From positions 2,297 to 66,296 of the forward strand of contig CALHIP010000008.1 in assembly GCA_938030745.1 (NCBI GenBank): a stretch of 64,000 nt of DNA. The letters run 5' to 3'. This document shows positions 27,743 through 46,013 of the stretch, piece after piece. The notes beneath the pieces were generated by a model. That model ran no database searches and was not told where the DNA came from. It was given only the letters and a program-made list of their open reading frames with translations. A program made the position numbers and the translations under genes. The stretch's first letter is position 1, and each line of letters starts with the position of its first letter. Origin of the DNA: an uncultured Patescibacteria group bacterium. Lineage in GTDB: Bacteria > Patescibacteriota > Patescibacteriia > UBA2591 > CALHIP01.

Positions 27743-28693
27743 TTATATTTTTCTACCACTATGGAATTTGCGATGGATATCACGAAGACGAGGATTAGTA
27801 ACATGAGTATAAACTTGAGTAGTAGTGATATTCTTGTGACCAAGAAATTCTTGAACAACTCTTATATCAACACCTTGAGTCAAAAGATCAGTCGCGAAAG
27901 AATGTCGGAGAACGTGAGGAGTAGTGATTATTGGAATGCCAGCTAAAAGAGCATATTTTTTAACAATATTTTCGATTGAACGAATAGAGAGTCTTCTTGA
28001 AGTATTTTTTGGACCGCGATAATTTATAAAAAGAGCCTTTTCTTCATCTTTTCTAGTCATTAAATAATTTCTTAAAGCCCTAATTGCTCTCTCAGAAAAA
28101 TAAACTGTTCTTGTTCTGCCGCCTTTTCCAGTAATAACAATCTCTAAATCTTTTGTTTCTGGTTTAATTTTTATTTGATCTCGATTAAGGTTAACTAATT
28201 CTGCTACTCTTAATCCAGTAGAAAAAAGTGTTTCTAAAATTGCTTTATCACGCAAACCAATAATTGTTTTTTCATTTGGTGTTTCTAAAAGTTTTTTTAT
28301 TTGATCTAAACTGAGAAATTTAATAGTTTTTTCCTTTTCTTCTTTAGCTAATTTTATTTTTTCTGCTGGCAAAGAAATAATTCCTCGGTCAGTAAAATAA
28401 TTTAAAAGAGCTCTTAAAGCAATTAAATAATAATTTTGTGTACTTTTTTTCAGAGGAGTTTTTTTTAATTTATTAAAAGAACGAGAGAGCCAAACTCGAT
28501 ATTTCCAAATATGCTCTTCAGTTAATTCAGCTGGTTTTATCTGAGAGATTTTATTTTCTTTAAGCCAATCAAAAAATTTTTTTAAAAATCTATTATAATT
28601 TTCTTGAGTTTTATTAGAAAGACCCTTTTCTACAGCTAAATACTCAAGAAAATCATTTAAATGATTAATAATTGGCTTATTATTTTTCCGCAT
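27743..28693 (-). CDS. tyrosine site-specific recombinase (XerC/XerD-like)
   Basis: C-terminal catalytic region HVLRHSFATDLLTQGVDIRVVQEFLGHKNITTTQVYTHV (R..H-R-H...Y); N-terminal SAM-like domain. Confidence 0.75.
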   Translation of the reverse strand: MRKNNKPIINHLNDFLEYLAVEKGLSNKTQENYNRFLKKFFDWLKENKISQIKPAELTEEHIWKYRVWLSRSFNKLKKTPLKKSTQNYYLIALRALLNYFTDRGIISLPAEKIKLAKEEKEKTIKFLSLDQIKKLLETPNEKTIIGLRDKAILETLFSTGLRVAELVNLNRDQIKIKPETKDLEIVITGKGGRTRTVYFSERAIRALRNYLMTRKDEEKALFINYRGPKNTSRRLSIRSIENIVKKYALLAGIPIITTPHVLRHSFATDLLTQGVDIRVVQEFLGHKNITTTQVYTHVTNPRLRDIHRKFHSGRKI

Positions 28694-28841
28694 AGTATTA
28701 CCTAATTTCGCTTAACCTACCTTATGCGAAGTTTAATCCTTTTTATTATAAAGAGTTAAAAATAATCTGTAAATCCTACCCCCTGTGGATAAATCGGATA
28801 AAACTCGTATCGGATAAAACTCGTTTTGTTATTCTTCATCT

Positions 28842-29657
28842 TTATTTATAAAAAATTCGGCCACTAAATCTTAAATCAATATATTCAAGTTTTTTTCGAT
28901 CAGTAATTTTCTCTTTTAAAATTAATAGGAGATTCCTCACCTGCTCTTTAATATCTCCTTTTGGATCAAAATAAATTTTCCAATTTTCTGAAGTAAATGC
29001 TTGATAAATTAAAGCGCCATTTACTTCATTTATTTCAATCTTTAAAATTTTAAAATCAAGATTAGAAGTCTTTTTTAAAAAATCAAAGACAGATAAAATT
29101 GAAATTTCGCTTAATTCTTTCTCTACTTTATTTTCAACTATTGGTAAATTTGCTATATCTACTTCTTCTTGAGAGATCTTTTTAATAATCTCGCCATTTT
29201 TATTTAAAAGAAAATAGTCACCTAAAAATAAAAAAACTACTTCTGGCTTCCAGGCAGAAATTTTTATTTTTATTTCTCGATTAAAATTTCTTTTAATTTC
29301 AAAATTTTCTATTTTTTGATCTCTTAATAAAAGATTTTTTATTTCCTTTTTAGGGAAAAAAAATATATTATCTAAATTTAAAAAATAAAATTTTTTCGAT
29401 AAAATTTTATTAATTTCATTTTTTAATTGTTGTTCATCGATTTTAACTAATGGATAATCTTTAATTTCAAAAGAAATAAATTTGATCTTAAAAATTGGAG
29501 AAAAAAAAATCAAATAAAAAGAGCTAGCCAATAAAATTATCAAAAAAATTAGAGAAAAGATAAAAAATTTTGAAATTTTTTTCTTCTTTTCGTGTTGACG
29601 AAAAGCTATCATTCTTTTAGGAATTTGTTTTTTTTCAAAAAGAGAAATTATCCTCAT
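28842..29657 (-). CDS. ftsQ: FtsQ/DivIB-like cell division protein
   Basis: Basic N-terminus, single TM helix, POTRA-like extracytoplasmic region; positioned directly after ddl as in dcw clusters. Start set at the internal Met (MRIISLF) to limit overlap with ddl. Confidence 0.45.
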   Translation of the reverse strand: MRIISLFEKKQIPKRMIAFRQHEKKKKISKFFIFSLIFLIILLASSFYLIFFSPIFKIKFISFEIKDYPLVKIDEQQLKNEINKILSKKFYFLNLDNIFFFPKKEIKNLLLRDQKIENFEIKRNFNREIKIKISAWKPEVVFLFLGDYFLLNKNGEIIKKISQEEVDIANLPIVENKVEKELSEISILSVFDFLKKTSNLDFKILKIEINEVNGALIYQAFTSENWKIYFDPKGDIKEQVRNLLLILKEKITDRKKLEYIDLRFSGRIFYK

Positions 29658-29667
29658 TCTTTTTGAT

Positions 29668-30738
29668 TTACAAAGGTCCTTTTTTATTTTTATGTGCTTC
29701 AAGTCCTAATTGAATAATTTTATCTAAAAATTCTTCTGGTGACATCCCGACTTCGGCTGCTTGATGAAAAACCATAGTTGACGGTGTTACGCCAGGTAAA
29801 GTATTTGGCTCTAAAACAATTATTTCTCCATTTCTAACAAACATATCAATTCTTGGATAACCTTTAAGATTTAAAATTTGACAAACTTTAATAGCGGTTT
29901 CTTTAGCTTTTTTAGTTGTTTCTTCATCTAATCGAGCTGGAGTAATCATTTCTGCGCCACCAGGAAGAAATTTATCAAGCAAAGTTAAATATCCTAAATT
30001 CTGTTGCCAAGGTGTTTCAGTTAAAGGCAAAGCTTCTAATTCTTCATTACCTAAAACCGAACAAGTAATTTCTATCGCATTCTCAATATATTCATCAACT
30101 AAAATAATCCTATCCCAAATAAAAGCCTTTTTCATTGCCTCATCAAGATCTTTTTCCTCTTTAACAACAGTAATTCCTGTGCTACAACCCTCACGTGATG
30201 GTTTAACTAAACAAGGAAAGCCAATTTCCTTCTTTATCTTCTCTTTAATAATTTTAGCTGAAGAAGGGTCCATCCAATCTTTATCATAAACAGCTAGATA
30301 TTTCGGTACCTTAATTCCATGTAAAGTTAAGATTTTTCTTAAAGCATATTTATCCATTCCAAGTGCTGATGCTAATACACCTGAGCCATTGTAAGGAATA
30401 TTTAAAATCTCTAATAATCCTTGAAAACACCCATCTTCTAAATATTTACCATGACCGATAATAAAGGCAAAATCAATTAGTTCAGGTAATTTTTCATAAG
30501 GAATTTTTTCAGCTTGACCTTCAAGTAGTGCTTCAAGATCTGAAGTTGTATTTTGGATAATCAAAAAATCATTGATTCGCCACAATTTTAATTTTGAATC
30601 AACAAAAATTGGGATTTTCTCATATTTTTCTGCTGGTATTTTATAATAAACATTTCTTCCACCTTCAAGCGAAACTTCTTTTTCACTCGAAACTCCACCA
30701 AAAATAATACCAATCCTTAATTTATTCTTCTTGTCCAT
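29668..30738 (-). CDS. ddl: D-alanine--D-alanine ligase family paralog with variant second-substrate subsite (predicted D-Ala-D-X/depsipeptide ligase)
   Basis: ATP-grasp Ddl fold (IGIIFGGVSSEKEVSLEGG, GYPRIDMF, LEPNTLPG). By alignment to E. coli DdlB the Ser150 position reads Cys (EGCSTG) and the Lys215-Tyr216 position reads Lys-Phe (LDKFLPGG). Confidence 0.75.
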   Translation of the reverse strand: MDKKNKLRIGIIFGGVSSEKEVSLEGGRNVYYKIPAEKYEKIPIFVDSKLKLWRINDFLIIQNTTSDLEALLEGQAEKIPYEKLPELIDFAFIIGHGKYLEDGCFQGLLEILNIPYNGSGVLASALGMDKYALRKILTLHGIKVPKYLAVYDKDWMDPSSAKIIKEKIKKEIGFPCLVKPSREGCSTGITVVKEEKDLDEAMKKAFIWDRIILVDEYIENAIEITCSVLGNEELEALPLTETPWQQNLGYLTLLDKFLPGGAEMITPARLDEETTKKAKETAIKVCQILNLKGYPRIDMFVRNGEIIVLEPNTLPGVTPSTMVFHQAAEVGMSPEEFLDKIIQLGLEAHKNKKGPL

Positions 30739-30897
30739 AGTTTTTAATTATAATAAATTTTTATAAAAATGTTAAGTTGATTCTTAAAATAAAAAAAATT
30801 TTTTAAGATAATAAAACTTTTTCTCATTTCTGATGAGTTCTTTTTTAGATCTCAGTCCATTTGAAATCGTCTTGACTACTCATTAGTTCTTCTTCTC

Positions 30898-31140
30898 TTA
30901 TTTAACCCAGTCAGCTCCTAATTTTCTCATTTTCTGGCAGATGTCTTTTATCTCCCTTTCTAGTGAGAGTAACTCATTTCTCTGATTCTCACAAAGCTGA
31001 CCGCCGAGGGACTCTTTTTTTGCTTCCATCTCAGCCAATTTGTTTAAAATTTCGATTCGTCTTTTATCAATTTCTGTCAGTGTTTCTATTCTTTCTCTTT
31101 CGGGCTGAGATAGAAATTGTTCTTGGCCCCTCTCTTTCAT
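30898..31140 (-). CDS. hypothetical small charged protein, GC-richer than neighbours
   Basis: 80 aa, predicted helical and charged; about 39% GC by hand count versus about 30% nearby; sits between the two ddl paralogs beside a repeat element. Confidence 0.3.
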   Translation of the reverse strand: MKERGQEQFLSQPERERIETLTEIDKRRIEILNKLAEMEAKKESLGGQLCENQRNELLSLEREIKDICQKMRKLGADWVK

Positions 31141-31239
31141 AAATATTGTGTTAATACATTAATACGAAAATTGATTTATTTTTCATTTTTTATTATATCT
31201 TATTTAAATAATTTAGTCAAGAGACCCAAAATAATAATT

Positions 31240-32307
31240 TTAGAGTGGCCCTTTTTTATTCTGATGAGCTTGGAAAGCTAATTCAATAATTTTTGTTAAA
31301 AAATCTGTTAAGCTTAAACCAGCTAAAGCAGCCTGGTGATAAGTCCAAGATGATGGTCCCATACCAGTTGAAGCAGCGGAATTTGGATCAGTTATTAATA
31401 CCTTACCATCCTCTTCAATAAAACCATCAATTCTGGCATAACCTCGGCAACCTAAAGCTAAATATGTCCTTCTCGCCTGCTCCTGAATCTCTTTAATTAT
31501 TTTTTCATCAATTTTTATTGGCGTGATTTTTTTTGAAGCTCCGGGTAGATATTTGTGGTCATAGGTAAAGATTTCTGAATCATAAATTGTTTCTGTTGGT
31601 AAAAAAGCGACTGGATCCTCGTTACCAAAAACAACACAGGAAAATTCACGACCTTTAATTCTTTCTTCAATTAAAACTTCATTATCATATTCTAAAGCAT
31701 AATTTATTCCTTTTTCTAAATCTTTTTCATCTTTAACTAACATTACACCAATAGTTGAACCTTCACGAGTTGGTTTAGTAACAATTGGATAAGAAAATTT
31801 TTCTTTAATTGTTTTTTTTATCGCCTCTTTATTTTTCTCCCAATCACTTCTTTTAATCACTAAATATTCTGGTAAATTTATCCTACCATCTGCTTTCATC
31901 AACTCTCTTTGCATTTTTTTATCTAAACCTAAAGCAGCTGAAAGAACGCCCGAACCAGTATAAGGAATATTCAATATTTCTAAAACTCCTTGAAGACAAC
32001 CATCATCACCATATTTGCCATGAGTAACTAAAAAAGCTAAATCAATTAAATCTTTTAATTCTTCAATAAAAATTCTTTTTGCTCCTTTTATTTGTAAATT
32101 TTCTTCAATCTCTTTGCAAGTGTTGCGAATAATTAAACCTTCTGGAATTTGCCAGAATCTTAATTGAGAATCCCAGAAAATGGCAATTGGAATAAATTTT
32201 GTCCGATCTAAATGTTGATAAACATGCCGACCACCAGCTAAAGAAACTTCTTTTTCTGATGATTTTCCACCAAAAATTACACCAATTCTAAATTTCTTAT
32301 TTTCCAT
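31240..32307 (-). CDS. ddl: D-alanine--D-alanine ligase (canonical active-site residues)
   Basis: IGVIFGGKSSEKEVSLAGG, KPTREGSTIG (Ser retained), FTYDHKYLPG (Lys-Tyr retained), GYARIDGF, DPNSAAS. Confidence 0.85.
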   Translation of the reverse strand: MENKKFRIGVIFGGKSSEKEVSLAGGRHVYQHLDRTKFIPIAIFWDSQLRFWQIPEGLIIRNTCKEIEENLQIKGAKRIFIEELKDLIDLAFLVTHGKYGDDGCLQGVLEILNIPYTGSGVLSAALGLDKKMQRELMKADGRINLPEYLVIKRSDWEKNKEAIKKTIKEKFSYPIVTKPTREGSTIGVMLVKDEKDLEKGINYALEYDNEVLIEERIKGREFSCVVFGNEDPVAFLPTETIYDSEIFTYDHKYLPGASKKITPIKIDEKIIKEIQEQARRTYLALGCRGYARIDGFIEEDGKVLITDPNSAASTGMGPSSWTYHQAALAGLSLTDFLTKIIELAFQAHQNKKGPL

Positions 32308-32372
32308 ATATTTTTAAAAAAATTCTCCTATACTATTTTACGCGGCCGCTTTAAATAGTTTAGTTAGGATTT

Positions 32373-33596
32373 TTATTTATAGATTCTTGGTAAAAGTGGA
32401 TTAATTCGGGTTACTATTTCATAATTGATTGTTCCAATTTTTTCAGCCAGTTCTTCAGCGGTAATTTCTTCATTACCTTGTTTGCCGATTAAGACTACTT
32501 CATCTCCAATTTTAACATTAGGAATTTTTGTTACTTCAACCATTATTAAATTCATACAAACCCGACCACGAATTTGAGCTCGCCTTCCCCGAATTAAGAC
32601 CTGACCTTTATTTGATAATTTTCGATCATAACCATCCCAATAACCTACTGGCAAAACTGCAATTTTTGTTTTTCTTCTACAGCGATAAGTACAACCATAA
32701 CCAATAGGTGTTCCTGCTGATAATTCCTTAACTTGAATCACTTTTGTCTTCCAACTTAAGGCGGGTTTTAATTTTAATCTTATACCTTGTTTTTTTTCTA
32801 ATCCCTTGCTTGTTAGAGCTCCCTTCCAACCAAAAAGATCAGAAGCTAATTTTCGAGTTTCAGCTGATGGCCATAAACCATAAAGCCCGATTCCAATTCG
32901 AACTAAATTAAAATAAGTGGCAGGATTTCCAATAGTTGAAGCGGTACAACCAGCATGAATTAAGTCAAAAAAAGAGTCAAGACCAATTTTTTTGTTAATT
33001 TCTTCCACCACCCTCTTTAATCTTTCAGTCTGTAAAAGCGTATATTTTTGATTATAAGCCTCTGCATTGGCAAAATGGGTAAAGATACCTTTGAAGGTCA
33101 AACCAGGCAATTTAAGGCATTTTAAAACAAAATTTAAGCTATCTTTCGGTAAAACTCCAATCCTTGAGGTGCCAGTATCAATTTTTATATGAATTTTTGC
33201 CTCTTTACCTATTTTTTGGCTTAATTTCGACAAAATTTTTGCCTGTGGATAAGTATAAACAGCAAATTCTATTTCCTGACGAAGGGCTTGAATTTGACTC
33301 TTAATATCTTTAAGATCCCAATAAGTTAAAACAAGGATAGGTTTTTTAATACTTATTTTTCTTAAGATTAAAGCTTCATCTAAATAAGCTACTCCAAAAT
33401 AATCAATATATTCTTTAATAATTTTTGCTACACCAACTAATCCGTGACCATAAGCATTTGACTTAACGACTGCCATTAATTTTATTTTCGGCCCAACAAT
33501 TTTTTTGAATTCTTTCAAATTATTAATTAATGCTGATTTAGAAATTTCTACCCAAGTCAACATAATAATCAAAATTGATTGATAATTTCTGGCCAT
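32373..33596 (-). CDS. alr: alanine racemase
   Basis: VVKSNAYGHG PLP-lysine motif; about 400 aa; an alternative start MLTWVEI at 33563 would remove the overlap with serS. Confidence 0.8.
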   Translation of the reverse strand: MARNYQSILIIMLTWVEISKSALINNLKEFKKIVGPKIKLMAVVKSNAYGHGLVGVAKIIKEYIDYFGVAYLDEALILRKISIKKPILVLTYWDLKDIKSQIQALRQEIEFAVYTYPQAKILSKLSQKIGKEAKIHIKIDTGTSRIGVLPKDSLNFVLKCLKLPGLTFKGIFTHFANAEAYNQKYTLLQTERLKRVVEEINKKIGLDSFFDLIHAGCTASTIGNPATYFNLVRIGIGLYGLWPSAETRKLASDLFGWKGALTSKGLEKKQGIRLKLKPALSWKTKVIQVKELSAGTPIGYGCTYRCRRKTKIAVLPVGYWDGYDRKLSNKGQVLIRGRRAQIRGRVCMNLIMVEVTKIPNVKIGDEVVLIGKQGNEEITAEELAEKIGTINYEIVTRINPLLPRIYK

Positions 33597-34813
33597 TTAA
33601 AAGTTTTATCTTTTTCTTGATAATTTTCAATGATAGCAATTATTGTTCTTGGCATAGCTAAAGCTGTTGCATTTAAAGTATGGACAAAAATATTTTTGTT
33701 ATCTTTGTTTTTATATCTAATTTTTAATCGCCTTGCCTGGAAATCAGTACAATTCGAAGATGAAGCAATTTCACGATATCTTTTTTGAGAAGGAAACCAC
33801 GCTTCAATATCATATGTTGCTGCTGAAGGATAACTTAAGTCACCAGTACAAATTTGAATTACTCGATAGGGCAGGCCCAATTTTTTTACTAATTCCTCTT
33901 CAAGAGCAATAAGAAGTTGATGTTCTTTTTGCGAATCTTCAGGTTTAGTAAAAGAAACCATCTCTACTTTCTCAAATTGATGGACTCGAAAAATTCCTTT
34001 GACATCTTTACCATAAGAACCTGCTTCACGCCGAAACGAGGAACAAGGAAAACCAACATAACGAATTGGCAAATCTTCTTCTTTTAAAATTTCGTTAGCA
34101 TGCATAGCAATTAAAGATTGCTCAGCTGTGCCAATCAAATATAATTTATCTTTTTCTATAAAATAAGTTTCATCTGGTGCCTGATCTAAATAACCCATTC
34201 CTCTCATTATTTCTGGTTTCAACATCAATGGAGGAACAACTGCTATAAATGGCTTATTACTAATTGCTAATTGTTTTTCTTTTATTATTTTTTTTATATT
34301 TTCTTCATTAGTTAGAAAATTAACAGCAAAATTAATAAGTTTTAATTCAAGTAAGGCTACCTTATCTTTTAAATAATAAAAACGGGAGCCAGCAACTTTT
34401 GCTCCGCGTTCGGTATCAATTAAATCACCAACAATTTCTAAATATTCTTTAAAATCACCTTCTGGTATTTTTCCAACTCTTTTTATTTCAACATTCCCTT
34501 TTTCATCTGGATAAACTGGAACATCAGGAAGGGGAATATTCGGAATTTTAAAAATGAGGTTTTGAAAATCTTCTTCTACTTTGTCTAATTCTTTTTCTAA
34601 TTTTTTTATTTCTTCTTTTTTTAATCTTAATTCTTCAATCGGCAAATTTTTATTTAATTTTTTTTCTCTTCTTAATTTTTCTATTTTTTTAATTAATTCT
34701 CTCCTTTTTTGATCTAATTTTAATAATTTATCGAAATCAATTTTAACTCCTCGATTTTGACAAGCAGTTTTTATTTTCTGAAGATTTTGACGGATAAATT
34801 TAATATCAATCAT
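33569..34813 (-). CDS. serS: seryl-tRNA synthetase
   Basis: N-terminal coiled-coil arm (MIDIKFIRQN...), class II catalytic core, 414 aa. Confidence 0.9.
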   Translation of the reverse strand: MIDIKFIRQNLQKIKTACQNRGVKIDFDKLLKLDQKRRELIKKIEKLRREKKLNKNLPIEELRLKKEEIKKLEKELDKVEEDFQNLIFKIPNIPLPDVPVYPDEKGNVEIKRVGKIPEGDFKEYLEIVGDLIDTERGAKVAGSRFYYLKDKVALLELKLINFAVNFLTNEENIKKIIKEKQLAISNKPFIAVVPPLMLKPEIMRGMGYLDQAPDETYFIEKDKLYLIGTAEQSLIAMHANEILKEEDLPIRYVGFPCSSFRREAGSYGKDVKGIFRVHQFEKVEMVSFTKPEDSQKEHQLLIALEEELVKKLGLPYRVIQICTGDLSYPSAATYDIEAWFPSQKRYREIASSSNCTDFQARRLKIRYKNKDNKNIFVHTLNATALAMPRTIIAIIENYQEKDKTFKWPEIINQF

Positions 34814-41704: not shown

Positions 41705-42994
41705 TTATATCCAACCTTTTTCTTGTCTAACTAATAATTTTTCTGCTTTTTCTGGTTCAGCCATTATTTCTTTAATTACCTTTTCCATTCTTACTTTTTG
41801 CGAACCCTTAACTAAAATAATATCCCCATAAATAATTTTTTCTTTAAGAAATTTACCCGCTTCTTCTGAATTTTCAAACTCAAAAATTAAATCCTGATGA
41901 AAACCATTTTCTTTAGCTCCTTCAGCAATCTTTTTTGCTAAATTCCCTACTGTGATTAAAAGATCAAAATTATATTCAGTTATTTTTTTACCAATTTTAA
42001 AATGAGCTTCTTCTGCAAATTGGCCAAGTTCTAACATTTCACCTAAAACAACAATTTTTCTTCTTCCCGGTAAAGTTAAAATTTCTTTTAAAGTTTCAAG
42101 AGCAGCTTCAACTGCTTCCGGAGAAGAATTATATGAGTCATCGATAATTAAACTTTTTTTAATTCCGTTAATTAATTTCATTCTTCCTGCTAACGGTTCG
42201 AATTCTTTTAATGATTCGACAATTTCTAAAAGATTAATTCCCATTACTAAACCGACACTAATTGCTGCTAAAACGGAATAGACCTGATGACGAGCTATAA
42301 TTTTTGGCAGAAAAACAGGTATGATATTACCACGATAATTAATTTTAAATTTTAAACCATAAATTTTAATTTCTCCTCTTTCAGTAATTTCTTGATCAAG
42401 ATTTATTTCTAATCCTTTAAGATCAACTTTCCTTGTTAGACCATAGGTAAAAACTTTTGCTCGAATTTTATCTTTTATTTCTAAAATCTTCTCATCATCA
42501 CCATTTAAAATTGCCCAGCCTTGTCGTGGTAAATGGGTAACAATAATTTCTTTTTCTTTTAAAATATTTTCCAAACTTTTAAAAGCTTCCAAATGAACAG
42601 GAGCAATAGCTGTAATTACGCCAATCTGACAAGGAGCAATTTTTGTTAAATATCTTATATCACCTGGTTTATCAGCAGCCATCTCTAAAATTAAAATTTT
42701 TGGAAATTTAATAGGAAAAATAATTTCAAATAATCCTTTTAAGAAAACTTTCAACCAACCAAAAATAGACTTACCTTGACTTTCAGCATTAATAATTGTT
42801 AATGGTAAACCAATCTCATTATTATAATTTTTTGGCGAAGCACGAACAAAAAATTTTTTCTTTAAAACTAAAGCAATTGCTTCTTTAGTTGATGTTTTTC
42901 CAACACTGCCGGTAATACCAATAATAAAAGGCTTATATTTTCTAATTATTATTTTTGCTAAGAGACCTAAAATTTTTTCGATAAATTTTTTCAT
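41705..42994 (-). CDS. murF: UDP-MurNAc-tripeptide--D-alanyl-D-alanine ligase
   Basis: Mur ligase P-loop IIGITGSVGKTSTKE; central and C-terminal Mur ligase domains; position in the dcw cluster. Confidence 0.85.
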   Translation of the reverse strand: MKKFIEKILGLLAKIIIRKYKPFIIGITGSVGKTSTKEAIALVLKKKFFVRASPKNYNNEIGLPLTIINAESQGKSIFGWLKVFLKGLFEIIFPIKFPKILILEMAADKPGDIRYLTKIAPCQIGVITAIAPVHLEAFKSLENILKEKEIIVTHLPRQGWAILNGDDEKILEIKDKIRAKVFTYGLTRKVDLKGLEINLDQEITERGEIKIYGLKFKINYRGNIIPVFLPKIIARHQVYSVLAAISVGLVMGINLLEIVESLKEFEPLAGRMKLINGIKKSLIIDDSYNSSPEAVEAALETLKEILTLPGRRKIVVLGEMLELGQFAEEAHFKIGKKITEYNFDLLITVGNLAKKIAEGAKENGFHQDLIFEFENSEEAGKFLKEKIIYGDIILVKGSQKVRMEKVIKEIMAEPEKAEKLLVRQEKGWI

Positions 42995-42996
42995 AA

Positions 42997-44739
42997 TTAT
43001 TCTTCTGTTGGTGGTATTTTATAATATTTAAGAATAAAATCAGCTAATTTAGCGAAGGTTGGAGTAGCAGTCCGATCGCTAAACCTCTCTAATTTTGGAT
43101 TATCTAATTTAACTAAAGCAACAAATCTTGGATTGTCAGCAGGAGCAAAACCACCAAAGGAGTGAATTGTCTCATCTGAATAACTACCAAAATAGGCAAT
43201 TTGAGCTGTTCCAGTTTTGCCAGCTACCAAATAGCCAGGAACAGCAGCTCTTTTTCCCCAACCATTTTTAACTACTGAAATCATTAAATCTTTTAAAATT
43301 TCTGCGGTTGAAGGAGAAATAACTTGACGAACTTCTTGTGGTTTATTTTCAAATATAATACCTTCTGAAGAAACAATTTTTTTAACTAAATATGGCCTCA
43401 TTAATTTTCCGCCATTGGCGATAACCGCTAAACCCATTGTCATCTGTAAAGGAGTAACTGCTATCCCTTGGCCAAAAGAAGCAGTTGCTAAATAAATTTC
43501 TTTATTTTCTGAAAGATTTTTAATGTCTCCCTTTGCCTCAGCTGGCAAATCAATTCCTGTTTTTTCACCAAAACCAAATTTTTTTACAAAATGACGGAAA
43601 GTATCTAAACCAACTTTCTGGGCAATAAAAATTGCTCCAGTATTAATAGATTTTTCTAAAACCTCCCTCATTGTTCTTTGACCATAAATTTTTTCACCAG
43701 CATTTTTTATAGTATAACTACCAATTTTAACAAAACCTTTATCTTCGTAAGTTGTCTCTGGAGTGATTTTTTCTTCTTCTAAACCAGCAGCAAAAGTAAT
43801 AAGTTTAAAAATTGAACCTGGCTCATATTGAAAAGAAATAGCTGAGTTTGAAAAAAGAGTAATATCTTTGACTTTGAAATATTCATTAGGATCAAAATAA
43901 GGATAATTACAGAGGGCTAAAATTGCTCCTGTCTTTGGCTCAACTACAACAACATTTCCACTTTTTGCTTTATATTTCTCAATCGCCTCTTCTAAAATCT
44001 GACATGACTTTATCTGAATTGGTCTTTCAATAGTCAAAATAATATTTGAACCATCCTTTGGTTTTTTAAAAATAATTTCTCTACTGGCAATAATTATCTC
44101 GCCAATTCCTTTTTCACCTCTAATTAATCCAGCTTTACCAGAAAGAATATCTTCATAATATTCTTCAAGACCATAGCGACCAATTTTTTTATCTCCTTTG
44201 AAACCAAAAAAACCTAAAAGATGTGAAAAATATTTACCATCAGGATAGAATCGATTTAATTTTCTTTCAAAATATATTCCTTTAATTGATTTTTTTTCAA
44301 TTTCTTCTTTCTCTTTTTCGGAAAGATCGTTTTTCAAAATTTCATAACTGTCATTTTTTTTAGAAATTTTTTCTAATATTTTTCTAAAATCTTCGTTTTT
44401 TTCATCGATAGGAATTTTTAAAACTTCGGCTAATTGAGATGCTACTTCGTACGGATTTGAAATCTGATTAGGAATTGCACAAAGATTATAAGTATAAATA
44501 TTTAAAGCAATTGGAATTTTTTCTTCTCCTTCTTCAACAAAAATTTCTCCCCTTTTAGGCTCTATTTCTTTTTCAAAAATTCTAAGATTTTTAGCTAAAA
44601 CTTTATATTTTTTACCTTCAATAATTTGGAGTTTGACCAATCTTAAAATAATAATTAGCCATAAAATAAAAAAAATAATCCCTATAAAAATAATTCTTGA
44701 AAAATTATTTTTCTTCGGCTTAGTAAGTTTAAAAACCAT
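42997..44739 (-). CDS. ftsI: penicillin-binding transpeptidase (FtsI/PBP2-like)
   Basis: N-terminal TM, PBP dimerisation region, transpeptidase motifs SIFK (SxxK), SINT (SxN), KTGT. Confidence 0.85.
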   Translation of the reverse strand: MVFKLTKPKKNNFSRIIFIGIIFFILWLIIILRLVKLQIIEGKKYKVLAKNLRIFEKEIEPKRGEIFVEEGEEKIPIALNIYTYNLCAIPNQISNPYEVASQLAEVLKIPIDEKNEDFRKILEKISKKNDSYEILKNDLSEKEKEEIEKKSIKGIYFERKLNRFYPDGKYFSHLLGFFGFKGDKKIGRYGLEEYYEDILSGKAGLIRGEKGIGEIIIASREIIFKKPKDGSNIILTIERPIQIKSCQILEEAIEKYKAKSGNVVVVEPKTGAILALCNYPYFDPNEYFKVKDITLFSNSAISFQYEPGSIFKLITFAAGLEEEKITPETTYEDKGFVKIGSYTIKNAGEKIYGQRTMREVLEKSINTGAIFIAQKVGLDTFRHFVKKFGFGEKTGIDLPAEAKGDIKNLSENKEIYLATASFGQGIAVTPLQMTMGLAVIANGGKLMRPYLVKKIVSSEGIIFENKPQEVRQVISPSTAEILKDLMISVVKNGWGKRAAVPGYLVAGKTGTAQIAYFGSYSDETIHSFGGFAPADNPRFVALVKLDNPKLERFSDRTATPTFAKLADFILKYYKIPPTEE

Positions 44740-44741
44740 AA

Positions 44742-45104
44742 TTATTTTTTACTGACAGCTGTTTCAAATAATGGTCTAAGATAATCTACTTTCTCTGTTT
44801 TAATGAAAGATGTTAAATTTTTTTGAATAGTCTCTGATGATTCTAGTTTTATTTTTTCTAAAAGAAGAGATTTGTTAATTTTCTCTAGCTCATCTTTCTT
44901 TTTTTCTAATTCATTAAGTTTAAAACCGAGACTGACAATCTGATTCATTTGAATTAGATAAAGAATAAGAGTAATAAAAATAAGACCAAGAAGAATAATG
45001 TTTAAGATGAATGGATTTTTTAAAACAAAACCAGCAACATTTTTCTTTGACAAGAAAAGACTATTATGACGATTTAATGAAAAATTTTTTATATAAGGAG
45101 ACAT
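44742..45104 (-). CDS. ftsL: FtsL-like small bitopic cell division protein
   Basis: 120 aa; single TM followed by a coiled coil; located between rsmH and ftsI. Confidence 0.45.
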   Translation of the reverse strand: MSPYIKNFSLNRHNSLFLSKKNVAGFVLKNPFILNIILLGLIFITLILYLIQMNQIVSLGFKLNELEKKKDELEKINKSLLLEKIKLESSETIQKNLTSFIKTEKVDYLRPLFETAVSKK

Positions 45105-45119
45105 ATTTTATTCTAAATT

Positions 45120-46013
45120 CTAAACTATCTTAAACGCTGCTCTTAATTTTGCTGAACGAGACCGAGGATTATTTTTAATTTCTTGATTAGTTGGTCGAAC
45201 TGGCTTTTTAGTTAAAATTTTTAAAATCCCTTCTTTTGCTTTTTGACGGAAAAAATTTTTGACAATTCTATCTTCTAAAGAATGATAAGAGATGATCACT
45301 AATTTTCCATTTTTTCCTAAAACTTCAATTGTTTGAGGAAGAACTTTTTTTAAATTTTCAAGTTCATCATTAACAGCAATTCTTAGGGCTTGAAAAACTC
45401 TTGCTAAAGTTTTAAATCTAAATCGATAGACTCCAAATTTTTCCAAAACTTCATTTATTACTTCAACTAATTGTTTAGTTGTTTTAATTTTATTTTTCCG
45501 ACGCTTATCTAAGATATTTCTAACTATCGGTTTAGCAAATTTTTCTTCTCCATATTCTTTTAAAATTTTTTCTAACATTTCTTTTGGATACTGGTTAATT
45601 ATTTCAGCAGCAGTTATTCCATTTTTAGCATATCTCATATCTAAAAACTCGTCTTTCTGGAAACTAAACCCTTTTCCACTTTTTTCCAATAAATCTGTAG
45701 ACAAGCCAAGATCAATAAGAATACCAGAAATATCTTTAAAATTATATTTTTCAATGATCCTTTTTAAATTAATAAAATTTTCATTAACGAGAATTAATCT
45801 ATTCTTTATTTTTGCTTTTTTATTCTTTATTTTAGTTAATTCATCAATTGCTTCTTTTGATAAGTCAATACCCAATAGTTTTCCCTTCGGTTCTATTAAT
45901 TTTAAAATTACAAATGCATGTCCTCCACCACCAATTGTACAGTCAATAAAATTTTGATTTGGTTTTGGTGAAAGATAATTAATAACTTCTTTTAAAAGAA
46001 CAGGAATATGCAT
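45120..46013 (-). CDS. rsmH: 16S rRNA (cytosine1402-N4)-methyltransferase
   Basis: MHIPVLLKEV...FIDCTIGGGGHA N-terminal signature. Confidence 0.9.
   Translation of the reverse strand: MHIPVLLKEVINYLSPKPNQNFIDCTIGGGGHAFVILKLIEPKGKLLGIDLSKEAIDELTKIKNKKAKIKNRLILVNENFINLKRIIEKYNFKDISGILIDLGLSTDLLEKSGKGFSFQKDEFLDMRYAKNGITAAEIINQYPKEMLEKILKEYGEEKFAKPIVRNILDKRRKNKIKTTKQLVEVINEVLEKFGVYRFRFKTLARVFQALRIAVNDELENLKKVLPQTIEVLGKNGKLVIISYHSLEDRIVKNFFRQKAKEGILKILTKKPVRPTNQEIKNNPRSRSAKLRAAFKIV

What the first reader, a model, noticed from the sequence alone, without database searches (positions are those of the whole stretch)
29668..32307. Tandem ddl paralogs; the downstream copy carries the S150/Y216 substitutions diagnostic of D-Ala-D-lactate (depsipeptide) ligases
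Two D-Ala-D-Ala ligase family genes sit in tandem after alr. The downstream copy (29668..30738, directly coupled to ftsQ) has Cys and Phe where E. coli DdlB has Ser150 and Tyr216.

Aligned against E. coli DdlB (KPSREGSSVG ... FYDYEAKYLSD):
- Upstream copy (31240..32307): KPTREGSTIG and FTYDHKYLPG, so the Ser150 and Lys215-Tyr216 positions are kept.
- Downstream copy (29668..30738): KPSREGCSTG and LDKFLPGG, so Ser150 reads Cys and Tyr216 reads Phe. Arg255, Glu270 and Asn272 equivalents (GYPRIDMF, LEPNTLPG) are retained.

In DdlB the Ser150-Tyr216-Lys215 triad sets D-Ala selectivity at the second subsite. Y216F or S150A mutants gain D-Ala-D-lactate ligase activity. Naturally vancomycin-resistant Leuconostoc and Lactobacillus depsipeptide ligases carry Phe at this position.

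This organism may therefore make D-Ala-D-Lac (or D-Ala-D-X) terminated peptidoglycan precursors alongside the canonical dipeptide. That would be a built-in glycopeptide-resistance-like route or a second cell-wall precursor pool. The variant copy is the one sitting in the dcw-like ddl-ftsQ position.
Basis: partly seen in the sequence, partly recalled or inferred. Interest (0 to 1): 0.72.

Follow-up and report, generated by a model that had tools for sequence, protein, structure and literature searches.

The report
Conserved two-part D-Ala-D-Ala ligase pair
The two adjacent cell-wall ligase genes are real and the second one does lack the usual Ser/Tyr pair, but this is one half of an ancient two-part ligase found in many bacterial phyla, often fused into one protein, and not a special antibiotic-resistance feature of this organism.

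Summary
On the minus strand, alr is followed by two ddl paralogs and an ftsQ-like gene. The downstream copy (29668-30738) has Cys185 and Phe257 at the E. coli DdlB Ser150 and Tyr216 positions. The upstream copy (31240-32307) keeps Ser and Tyr.

The trait is not specific to this organism:
- All 120 best homologs of the downstream copy, and all 86 related loci, carry C150/L210/F216/T281 ("CF-type").
- The upstream copy belongs to a second conserved type ("Y-type") with S150/Y216 but Asp at E68 and E270.
- The Y-then-CF gene pair, same order and strand, recurs in Patescibacteria, Anaerolineae, Syntrophales and Bipolaricaulia (69 of 76 assessable loci).
- In Dependentiae, Bacteroidota and others the two are fused into one 650-1285 aa protein, always Y-module then CF-module.

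The nine positions that separate the types all lie in active-site motifs. Both copies keep the ATP-grasp catalytic core.

Most likely this is a co-inherited, probably heterodimeric, housekeeping ligase that feeds MurF. D-Ala-D-lactate synthesis by the CF site is possible but untested. No D-lactate dehydrogenase or VanX-like gene is linked. The system also occurs in double-membraned (diderm) and intracellular bacteria. Plant DDL is likewise a double-ligase fusion, and moss makes ordinary D-Ala-D-Ala precursor; I could not check the plant module types.

The parts
32373..33596 (-). alr (alanine racemase, 407 aa), first gene of the alr-ddlY-ddlCF arrangement
   Evidence: TIGR00492 scores 362.8 bits against a cut-off of 168. 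An alr lies upstream of the pair in many related loci.
31240..32307 (-). ddl 'Y-type' module (355 aa). It keeps S184 and Y253 (DdlB S150/Y216). It has D101 (E68), D307 (E270), a 2-aa insertion A311-A312 and W321 (L282).
   Evidence: AlphaFold model pLDDT 89.2. All 120 best homologs have Y216, S150 and D270.
31192..31220 (-). promoter-like site (TTGACT-17-TATAAT, 11 of 12 matches) ahead of the small ORF
   Evidence: Conserved in the 82-85% identical relative L007. This is a consensus match only.
30898..31140 (-). 80-aa ORF inserted between the two ddl genes; function unknown
   Evidence: no family. Conserved in frame in L007, with a 3-nt indel. Absent from other Patescibacteria loci, where the gap is 2-87 nt.
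30747..30775 (-). promoter-like site (TTAACA-17-TATAAT, 11 of 12 matches) directly ahead of the CF-type ddl
   Evidence: Conserved in L007.
29668..30738 (-). ddl 'CF-type' module (356 aa). It has C185 (S150), L251 (Y210), F257 (Y216), T321 (S281) and M322 (L282). The full ATP/Mg catalytic set is kept: E19, H96, E101, K130, K179, K256, R296, D298, E310, N312, G316.
   Evidence: AlphaFold model pLDDT 87.3; ordinary Ddl fold with TM about 0.8 and at most 31% identity to any solved structure.
30184..30186 (-). TGT codon of Cys185, at the DdlB Ser150 position
   Evidence: Cys in 120 of 120 homologs.
29968..29970 (-). TTT codon of Phe257, at the DdlB Tyr216 position
   Evidence: Phe in 120 of 120 homologs.
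28842..29657 (-). ftsQ-like gene (271 aa as called), 10 nt downstream of the CF-type ddl
   Evidence: Gene call with a faint FtsQ_DivIB_C hit. No NCBIfam hit.

Best explanation
The two genes are this Patescibacteria (candidate phyla radiation, CPR) organism's version of an ancient, co-inherited two-module D-Ala-D-X ligase.

Origin. One ancestral tandem duplication produced two types. The 'Y-type' module keeps S150/Y216 but has Asp at E68 and E270. The 'CF-type' module has C150/L210/F216/T281 and keeps canonical E68/E270. The two have stayed together ever since. They are adjacent genes in Patescibacteria, Anaerolineae, Syntrophales and Bipolaricaulia. They are one fused Y-CF polypeptide in Dependentiae, Bacteroidota and others, and probably in plant DDL.

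Shown:
- The conserved signatures.
- The conserved order.
- The fusions.
- Retention of the catalytic core in both modules.
- All type-discriminating residues lie in active-site motifs.

Inferred:
- The two modules work together, most likely as a heterodimer that mimics the usual Ddl homodimer.
- They are the cell's housekeeping supplier of the D-Ala-D-X unit that MurF adds to the peptidoglycan precursor.
- The CF site is the constant catalytic engine.
- The CF site has a relaxed or altered second-substrate pocket, having lost the E15-S150-Y216 hydrogen-bond triad.
- The main product is most probably D-Ala-D-Ala, with some capacity for D-Ala-D-Lac or another D-Ala-D-X.

The C150/F216 signature is therefore a family trait, not an organism-specific resistance adaptation.
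For: - Signature conservation: 120 of 120 CF homologs, 120 of 120 Y homologs and 86 of 86 CF genes in loci.
- Pairing: Y directly upstream of CF on the same strand in 69 of 86 loci, which is 69 of 76 with enough flank. In 32 of those the gap is 31 nt or less, or the genes overlap.
- Spread: 540 species-level genomes matched CF-specific peptide patterns.
- Relatedness: the two types are about 45% identical to each other and about 30% to DdlB, LmDdl2 or VanA. A neighbour-joining tree separates both types from those references in 94 of 100 bootstraps, and the two types show mirrored branching.
- Fusions: about 75 representative clusters of double-Ddl proteins, plus 119 of 119 Dependentiae proteins, have a Y-type N-module and a CF-type C-module joined by an 8-16 aa linker. 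Named sources are Bacteroidetes MED-G17, Cytophagales, a Rickettsiales-labelled MAG and Anaerolineaceae.
- Active-site focus: only nine positions discriminate the types at 90% or higher conservation, namely DdlB 68, 150, 189, 216, 217, 270, 274, 275 and 281. All lie in active-site motifs.
- CF as the constant module: it never loses a catalytic residue. Y-type sublineages carry K144L, or H63L/N272H/G276I.
[quoted passage not shown] It is closest to FCB-group (Fibrobacteres-Chlorobi-Bacteroidetes) bacteria (PMC9434261; PMC3493653). [quoted passage not shown]
Against: - No biochemical or interaction data exist for either type.
- Heterodimer formation is inferred only from co-inheritance and fusion. 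I could not run a multimer or fused-chain structure prediction.
- In seven Syntrophales loci the CF gene has no Y gene within 2.5-4 kb upstream, and one K144L Y-type gene is solitary. Adjacency is therefore not obligatory.
- In this window the two genes are 501 bp apart, with an intervening small ORF and separate promoter-like sites. That argues against strict translational coupling here.
- I could not check that the plant DDL modules are Y-type and CF-type, so the moss data bear on this system only by inference.
- I could not check whether these genomes carry a third, canonical ddl.
- Bootstrap support for each module clade is only 55-57%.
Confidence: 0.6

Rival explanations
1. The CF-type copy is a dedicated D-Ala-D-lactate (depsipeptide) ligase and the Y-type copy makes D-Ala-D-Ala. 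The cell would then hold two precursor pools and be intrinsically tolerant to glycopeptides.
For: - C150 and F216 replace both residues whose mutation gives DdlB D-Ala-D-Lac activity. Phe at this site marks the depsipeptide ligases of lactic acid bacteria (PMC5996685; PMC7691350).
- The omega-loop Tyr210 is also replaced, by an invariant Leu.
- Residue 282 is hydrophobic (M/C/V) as in LmDdl2, not Arg as in VanA (Arg in VanC/VanG is from memory).
- A partner that keeps S/Y could cover D-Ala-D-Ala supply.
- All type-specific differences lie in the active site.
Against: - No D-lactate dehydrogenase or VanX-like gene in the window or in 86 related loci. None appears in the annotated neighbourhoods.
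- The system occurs in diderm Syntrophales and Bacteroidota and in intracellular Dependentiae.
- The copy is only about 30% identical to LmDdl2 or VanA and far below Van-model cut-offs.
- Natural depsipeptide ligases keep Ser150.
- Y-type partners lose canonical catalytic residues in some lineages, which would leave those cells with no dipeptide ligase.
- Moss, whose DDL is a double-Ddl fusion, shows the Ala-Ala pentapeptide and a vancomycin effect. The module types there are unverified.
Confidence: 0.17
2. The two are independent isozymes, like E. coli DdlA and DdlB. Both would be ordinary D-Ala-D-Ala ligases that do not interact, kept adjacent only by operon inertia.
For: - Both keep the full catalytic core and give ordinary Ddl-fold models.
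- In this window they have separate promoter-like sites and a 501-bp spacer.
- Some genomes have the CF gene unlinked from any Y gene.
Against: - Redundant isozymes would not be expected to keep reciprocal, invariant active-site differences across phyla.
- Nor would they be expected to fuse repeatedly in a fixed order into a single polypeptide.
Confidence: 0.13
3. One module is mainly non-catalytic. The Y-type module would serve as a structural or regulatory partner (a pseudo-enzyme or substrate-sensing subunit) for the catalytic CF-type module.
For: - Y-type sublineages carry K144L, replacing an ATP-phosphate lysine.
- Others carry H63L/N272H/G276I.
- All Y-types have Asp at the Mg-bridging E270 position.
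- CF modules never deviate at catalytic positions.
Against: In this window and in most lineages the Y-type keeps E15, H63, K97, K144, S150, K215, Y216, R255, D257, N272 and G276, at about 50% overall identity across phyla. That pattern is typical of an active enzyme. E-to-D changes are conservative.
Confidence: 0.1

Closest known systems
Plant DDL (Arabidopsis At3g08840; Physcomitrium patens DDL), a fusion of two Ddl enzymes
   Same: - It has a two-Ddl-module architecture (PMC9954125).
- It is reported closest to FCB-group/CFB bacteria, and Bacteroidota fused proteins are Y-module plus CF-module.
- It functions in peptidoglycan precursor synthesis: the ddl knock-out gives macrochloroplasts and moss makes the Ala-Ala pentapeptide.
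   Different: Here the modules are separate genes 501 bp apart. I could not obtain a plant sequence, so the Y/CF identity of the plant modules is inferred, not tested.
Fused double-Ddl proteins of Dependentiae and Bacteroidota (annotated only as 'D-alanine--D-alanine ligase' or 'ATP-grasp domain-containing protein')
   Same: They have the same two module types in the same order, with the same signatures. They group with the window's copies in the tree.
   Different: They are a single polypeptide with an 8-16 aa linker. Their N-module keeps E68, where the separate Y-type genes have D68. Some carry roughly 50-aa insertions or an extra C-terminal membrane/PASTA-like region.
LmDdl2-type D-Ala-D-Lac ligases of Leuconostoc and Lactobacillus (PDB 1ehi)
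   Same: They have Phe at the DdlB Tyr216 position next to the invariant Lys, and a hydrophobic residue at position 282.
   Different: - About 30% identity and an independent origin.
- LmDdl2 keeps Ser150 and Tyr210, whereas the CF-type has Cys and Leu.
- LmDdl2 is a single enzyme without a Y-type partner.
E. coli DdlB and its Y216F / S150A mutants (PDB 2dln, 1iow)
   Same: The fold and catalytic core are the same. The CF-type naturally carries substitutions at both mutated positions.
   Different: About 30% identity. The mutants gain only weak depsipeptide activity. The CF-type also differs at positions 210, 212, 274, 281 and 282.
VanA/B/D and VanC/E/G resistance ligases
   Same: They belong to the same superfamily and fold. 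VanG is the best-scoring solved structure by sequence, at 162 bits.
   Different: Scores are 3-6 fold below the curated cut-offs. There are no vanH, vanX or vanT neighbours. The CF-type has no Arg at position 282 and no VanA-type omega loop.

Membership tests
Ddl family (ATP-grasp D-Ala-D-X ligases; Pfam PF01820+PF07478, TIGR01205) | N- and C-terminal Ddl domains and a whole-protein score at the curated cut-off | tested here: met
   Both copies carry PF01820 and PF07478. Downstream copy: NF002528 262.2 bits against a cut-off of 262, and TIGR01205 244.8 against 245.65 (borderline). Upstream copy: TIGR01205 249.4 against 245.65, and NF002378 246.9 against 243.
Ddl family | ATP/Mg catalytic residues (DdlB K97, K144, K215, R255, D257, E270, N272, G276, E15, H63) | tested here: met
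   All are present in the downstream copy. The upstream copy has all of them except E270, which is Asp.
Strict D-Ala-D-Ala ligases (DdlB-like) | E15-S150-Y216 hydrogen-bond triad | tested here: not met
   The downstream copy has C185 and F257. The upstream copy meets this feature (S184, Y253).
LmDdl2-type depsipeptide ligases (lactic acid bacteria) | Phe at the Tyr216 position | tested here: met
   K256-F257 aligns with LmDdl2 K260-F261.
LmDdl2-type depsipeptide ligases (lactic acid bacteria) | Membership of the DdlA-like clade of lactic acid bacteria | tested here: not met
   30% identity to LmDdl2 against 45-59% to Y- and CF-type proteins. It separates from LmDdl2 in 94 of 100 bootstraps. 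It scores 129 bits to 1ehi, against 162 to VanG.
LmDdl2-type depsipeptide ligases (lactic acid bacteria) | D-Ala-D-Lac synthesis | not testable with these tools
   This needs an enzyme assay or precursor mass spectrometry.
VanA/B/D-type D-Ala-D-Lac ligases | Score at the curated model cut-off, with vanH/vanX neighbours | tested here: not met
   NF000206 scores 161 bits against 550, and VanA 128 against 775. tblastn with VanX and a D-LDH finds nothing in the window or 86 related loci.
VanC/E/G-type D-Ala-D-Ser ligases | Score at the curated cut-off, with Arg at the DdlB L282 position | tested here: not met
   NF000207 scores 174 bits against 520, and VanG 206 against 495. Residue 282 is Met, or Cys/Val in relatives.
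Two-module Y+CF Ddl system (tandem genes or fused protein) | A Y-type module (S150/Y216/D270) immediately followed by a CF-type module (C150/L210/F216/T281), same strand and order | tested here: met
   Window genes 31240-32307, then 29668-30738. The same arrangement is seen in 69 loci and in all complete fused proteins.
Two-module Y+CF Ddl system (tandem genes or fused protein) | Physical association of the two modules | not testable with these tools
This needs a multimer prediction or a pull-down.

The most novel reading that the evidence does not exclude
The Y+CF pair is an obligate heteromeric ligase with two non-equivalent active sites. The Y site would make D-Ala-D-Ala. The CF site would make a depsipeptide or another D-Ala-D-X. 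This dual-output enzyme would be shared by Patescibacteria, Anaerolineae, Syntrophales, Bipolaricaulia, Dependentiae, part of the Bacteroidota and, through an old gene transfer, the plastid DDL of plants. A large and mostly uncultured part of the bacterial tree, and plant plastids, would then build peptidoglycan from a mixed precursor pool.
Probability: 0.12. Interest if true: 0.85.

Novelty: new variant of a known kind. Interest (0 to 1): 0.55.

Why it matters
Ddl is a textbook homodimeric enzyme and an antibiotic target (D-cycloserine directly, vancomycin indirectly). This analysis shows that many phyla carry a co-inherited pair of diverged Ddl modules instead, separate or fused, with reciprocal and invariant active-site changes.

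The full-text searches run here found no paper that describes the bacterial pair or its residue signature.

The finding gives a concrete, testable explanation for why plant DDL is a double enzyme. It predicts which half carries which signature.

It also warns against reading Phe at position 216 as a vancomycin-resistance marker outside lactic acid bacteria.

If the CF site does make a depsipeptide or another D-Ala-D-X, cell-wall chemistry in CPR, Chloroflexota and related uncultured groups would differ from the standard model.

Tried and rejected
- Rfam scan of 28500-34000, looking for a leader or riboswitch in the conserved intergenic stretch: nothing at E up to 1.
- tblastn with VanX and a D-lactate dehydrogenase against the window and 86 related loci: no hits.
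- Pfam on 20 further window ORFs of suitable size: no 2-hydroxyacid dehydrogenase or M15 peptidase. They turned out to be mraW, ftsI, a Mur ligase and housekeeping genes.
- P0164 (525 aa) looked like a possible fusion. Its extension is an unrelated N-terminal stretch, not a second Ddl.
- The roughly 0.9-kb gene between Y and CF in many Syntrophales is a signal-peptide, outer-membrane-like protein, not a D-Lac or dipeptidase enzyme.
- Structure models give only an ordinary Ddl fold with a low-confidence omega loop. No coordinates are available, so no active-site geometry could be measured.
- AlphaFold-database fold search, meant to find named carriers and plant DDL, was unavailable.
- The Hirano 2016 Plant Cell paper and the T. 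thermophilus cation paper are not held. No supplements contained plant DDL sequences.
- Literature searches for the bacterial pair or fusion found nothing.
- An initial idea that VanC-type ligases carry Phe at position 216 was dropped. From memory, VanC keeps K-Y and its Phe250 aligns nearer DdlB Tyr210. I did not test this.
Full report
**What is in the window**

The window is low in G+C (about 29%). Its best protein matches are named Patescibacteria. On the minus strand the gene order is:
- lysS and serS
- alr (32373-33596)
- a 355-aa Ddl-family gene (31240-32307)
- an 80-aa ORF (30898-31140)
- a 356-aa Ddl-family gene (29668-30738)
- an ftsQ-like gene and a xerC-like gene

**Checking the observation**

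DdlB matched 2dln/1iov exactly. The other two were corrected at one and four residues.

Three MAFFT runs and independent phmmer pairwise alignments all agree. The downstream protein has Cys185 at DdlB Ser150 (KPSREGCSTG) and Phe257 at Tyr216 (LDKFLPG). R296, D298, E310 and N312 stand at R255, D257, E270 and N272. Both variant positions adjoin invariant residues (E148-G149 and K215), so a register error is not plausible.

The upstream protein keeps Ser184 and Lys252-Tyr253. Codon coordinates were confirmed.

It has Asp101 for E68, Asp307 for the Mg-bridging E270, a two-residue insertion after N272 (DPNSAASTG) and Trp321 for L282.

**The signature is a family trait**

- All 120 best homologs of the downstream copy, down to 51% identity, have C150, L210, F216 and T281, with every ATP/Mg residue intact. 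They come from Patescibacteria, Chloroflexota/Anaerolineae and Bipolaricaulia. I call this the CF-type.
- All 120 best homologs of the upstream copy have S150, Y216 and D270; 117 of 120 have D68, and position 282 is F or W. I call this the Y-type. The 2-aa insertion is confined to the Patescibacteria members.
- The two types are about 45% identical to each other. They are only about 30% identical to DdlB, LmDdl2 or VanA.
- A neighbour-joining tree separates both types from those references in 94 of 100 bootstraps. The two types show mirrored internal branching. Support for each type as a clade is modest, at 55-57%.

The Phe therefore arose independently of the one in lactic acid bacteria.

**The pair is conserved as a cassette**

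Neighbourhood look-ups show a Y-type gene immediately followed by a CF-type gene on the same strand. This holds in Anaerolineae (L001-L003), Syntrophales (L004, L006) and Bipolaricaulia (L005), often next to alr or a MurF-Alr fusion.

A scan of one genome per species found 540 loci that match CF-specific peptide patterns. I examined 86 loci:
- 69 have the Y-type gene directly upstream.
- 10 of the remaining 17 have less than 2 kb of upstream flank.
- 7 Syntrophales loci lack a Y-type gene within 2.5-4 kb.

In 32 pairs the gap is 31 nt or less, or the genes overlap.

**The two modules are also found fused**

An exhaustive HMMER search with the CF copy returned about 75 cluster representatives, 650-1285 aa long, that contain two Ddl modules. 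In every complete one the N-module is Y-type (S150/Y216/D270/F282) and the C-module is CF-type (C150/L210/F216/E270/T281).

Named members come from Bacteroidetes MED-G17, Cytophagales, a Rickettsiales-labelled MAG and an Anaerolineaceae MAG. A further 119 of 119 roughly 740-aa proteins, those with source names all from Candidatus Dependentiae or Babeliales, show the same architecture, with an 8-16 aa linker.

Repeated fusion in a fixed order is classic evidence that two proteins act together.

**Where the two types differ**

Only nine alignment positions are at least 90% conserved within each type and different between them: DdlB 68, 150, 189, 216, 217, 270, 274, 275 and 281. All lie in the GEDG, P-loop, K215-Y216, ExN and G276-S281 active-site motifs.

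The pattern is reciprocal:
- The CF-type keeps the canonical metal-side residues (E68, E270, P275) but has lost the Ser-Tyr of the substrate triad and changed S281.
- The Y-type keeps the triad and S281 but changes E68 and E270.

The CF-type never loses a catalytic residue in any set examined. Y-type sublineages show K144L, or H63L/N272H/G276I in Bipolaricaulia and Dojkabacteria.

**Structure**

AlphaFold models of both window proteins are confident (pLDDT 87.3 and 89.2), with a disordered omega loop in the CF copy. The CF model is an ordinary Ddl fold, with TM about 0.8 to Thermus, Salmonella and S. aureus Ddl, VanG and LmDdl2. No solved structure is more than 31% identical.

**Link to known biology**

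The literature supports the Phe/Tyr rule in lactic acid bacteria and the weak depsipeptide activity of DdlB Y216F and S150A (PMC5996685; PMC7691350).

Plant DDL is described as a fusion of two putative DDL enzymes (PMC9954125). It is closest to Fibrobacteres-Chlorobi-Bacteroidetes or 'Chlamydiae/CFB' bacteria. [quoted passage not shown]

Bacteroidota fused proteins are Y+CF, so plant DDL probably is too. I could not obtain a plant sequence, so this remains an inference.

I found no paper describing the bacterial tandem or fused pair.

**Interpretation**

The best-supported reading is an ancient, co-inherited two-module ligase that serves as the housekeeping source of the MurF substrate. The two modules probably act as a heterodimer that mimics the usual Ddl homodimer.

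The depsipeptide hypothesis is not excluded. The CF pocket has lost exactly the residues that enforce D-Ala selectivity in DdlB. Several points argue against a glycopeptide-resistance role:
- No D-lactate dehydrogenase or VanX-like gene is linked to the pair (neighbourhoods).
- The system is present in diderm and intracellular bacteria.
- It is distant from the LmDdl2 and Van families.
- The moss data, if applicable, show a D-Ala-D-Ala precursor.

**Local details**

In this lineage the two ddl genes are 501 bp apart. The spacer holds an 80-aa ORF that is conserved in frame in the closest relative, L007. Each downstream unit is preceded by an 11-of-12 sigma-70-like site that is also conserved in L007. 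No Rfam family matches the region. The window also carries a separate mraW-ftsI-Mur ligase cluster at 41.7-46 kb.

Noticed in passing
window 30898-31140 (-): An 80-aa coiled-coil-like ORF sits between the two ddl genes. It is conserved in frame in the closest relative (L007) and has its own strong promoter-like site. It is absent from other Patescibacteria loci and matches no family.
   Followed up: partly
window 30739-30897 (-): The non-coding stretch between the small ORF and the CF-type ddl is conserved in L007. It includes a short inverted repeat (ATGAGT...ACTCAT) and a TTAACA-17-TATAAT site. There is no Rfam match.
   Followed up: partly
L005 4925-6004; L056 2801-3958; L061 2785-3948: A third variant of the upstream partner occurs in Bipolaricaulia, Dojkabacteria and one other MAG. 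It has H63L, N272H and G276I, with canonical E68 and E270. The same changes in three lineages suggest a distinct subtype rather than random decay.
   Followed up: partly
P0166, P0167, P0174 and about 20 others; L089 6001-7062; L090 6001-7056: A sublineage of Y-type proteins in Anaerolineae replaces the ATP-binding Lys144 with Leu (VVLPAREGSS). One is paired with a CF-type gene (L090) and one is solitary (L089).
   Followed up: partly
L004 4006-5970; L006 3937-5892: The alanine racemase upstream of the pair in Syntrophales is about 650 aa. Only the first 365 or so residues match alr. The C-terminal 280 or so residues have no Pfam hit.
   Followed up: no
L035, L044, L053, L058, L060 and others, between the two ddl genes: Many Syntrophales loci carry a roughly 257-aa gene between the Y and CF genes. 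It has a signal peptide and looks like an outer-membrane beta-barrel protein. Mla lipid-transport genes lie downstream.
   Followed up: partly
P0256, P0261, P0285 (1244-1285 aa): Some fused double-Ddl proteins carry an extra C-terminal region of about 350 aa, with a Pro-rich linker, a predicted membrane segment and PASTA-like repeats. This suggests a membrane-anchored ligase that senses the cell wall.
   Followed up: no
P0252-P0296 (about 860-950 aa fused proteins): The Bacteroidota-type fused proteins have insertions of about 50 aa in each module at the HMM position just before the omega loop (between profile positions about 201 and 205).
   Followed up: no
window 41705-46013 (-): A partial division/cell-wall cluster (mraW, a PBP transpeptidase and a 429-aa Mur ligase) lies 11 kb away from the ddl-ftsQ genes. 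The dcw genes are therefore split in this genome.
   Followed up: partly
L090 4155-5537 (-) and 11722-13056 (+): Next to one Anaerolineae Y/CF pair lie a 460-aa FAD_binding_4 oxidase, a glyoxalase, a MurF-Alr fusion and a further ATP-grasp L-amino-acid-ligase-like gene. The oxidase family includes FAD-dependent D-lactate dehydrogenases, but this was seen in one locus only.
   Followed up: no
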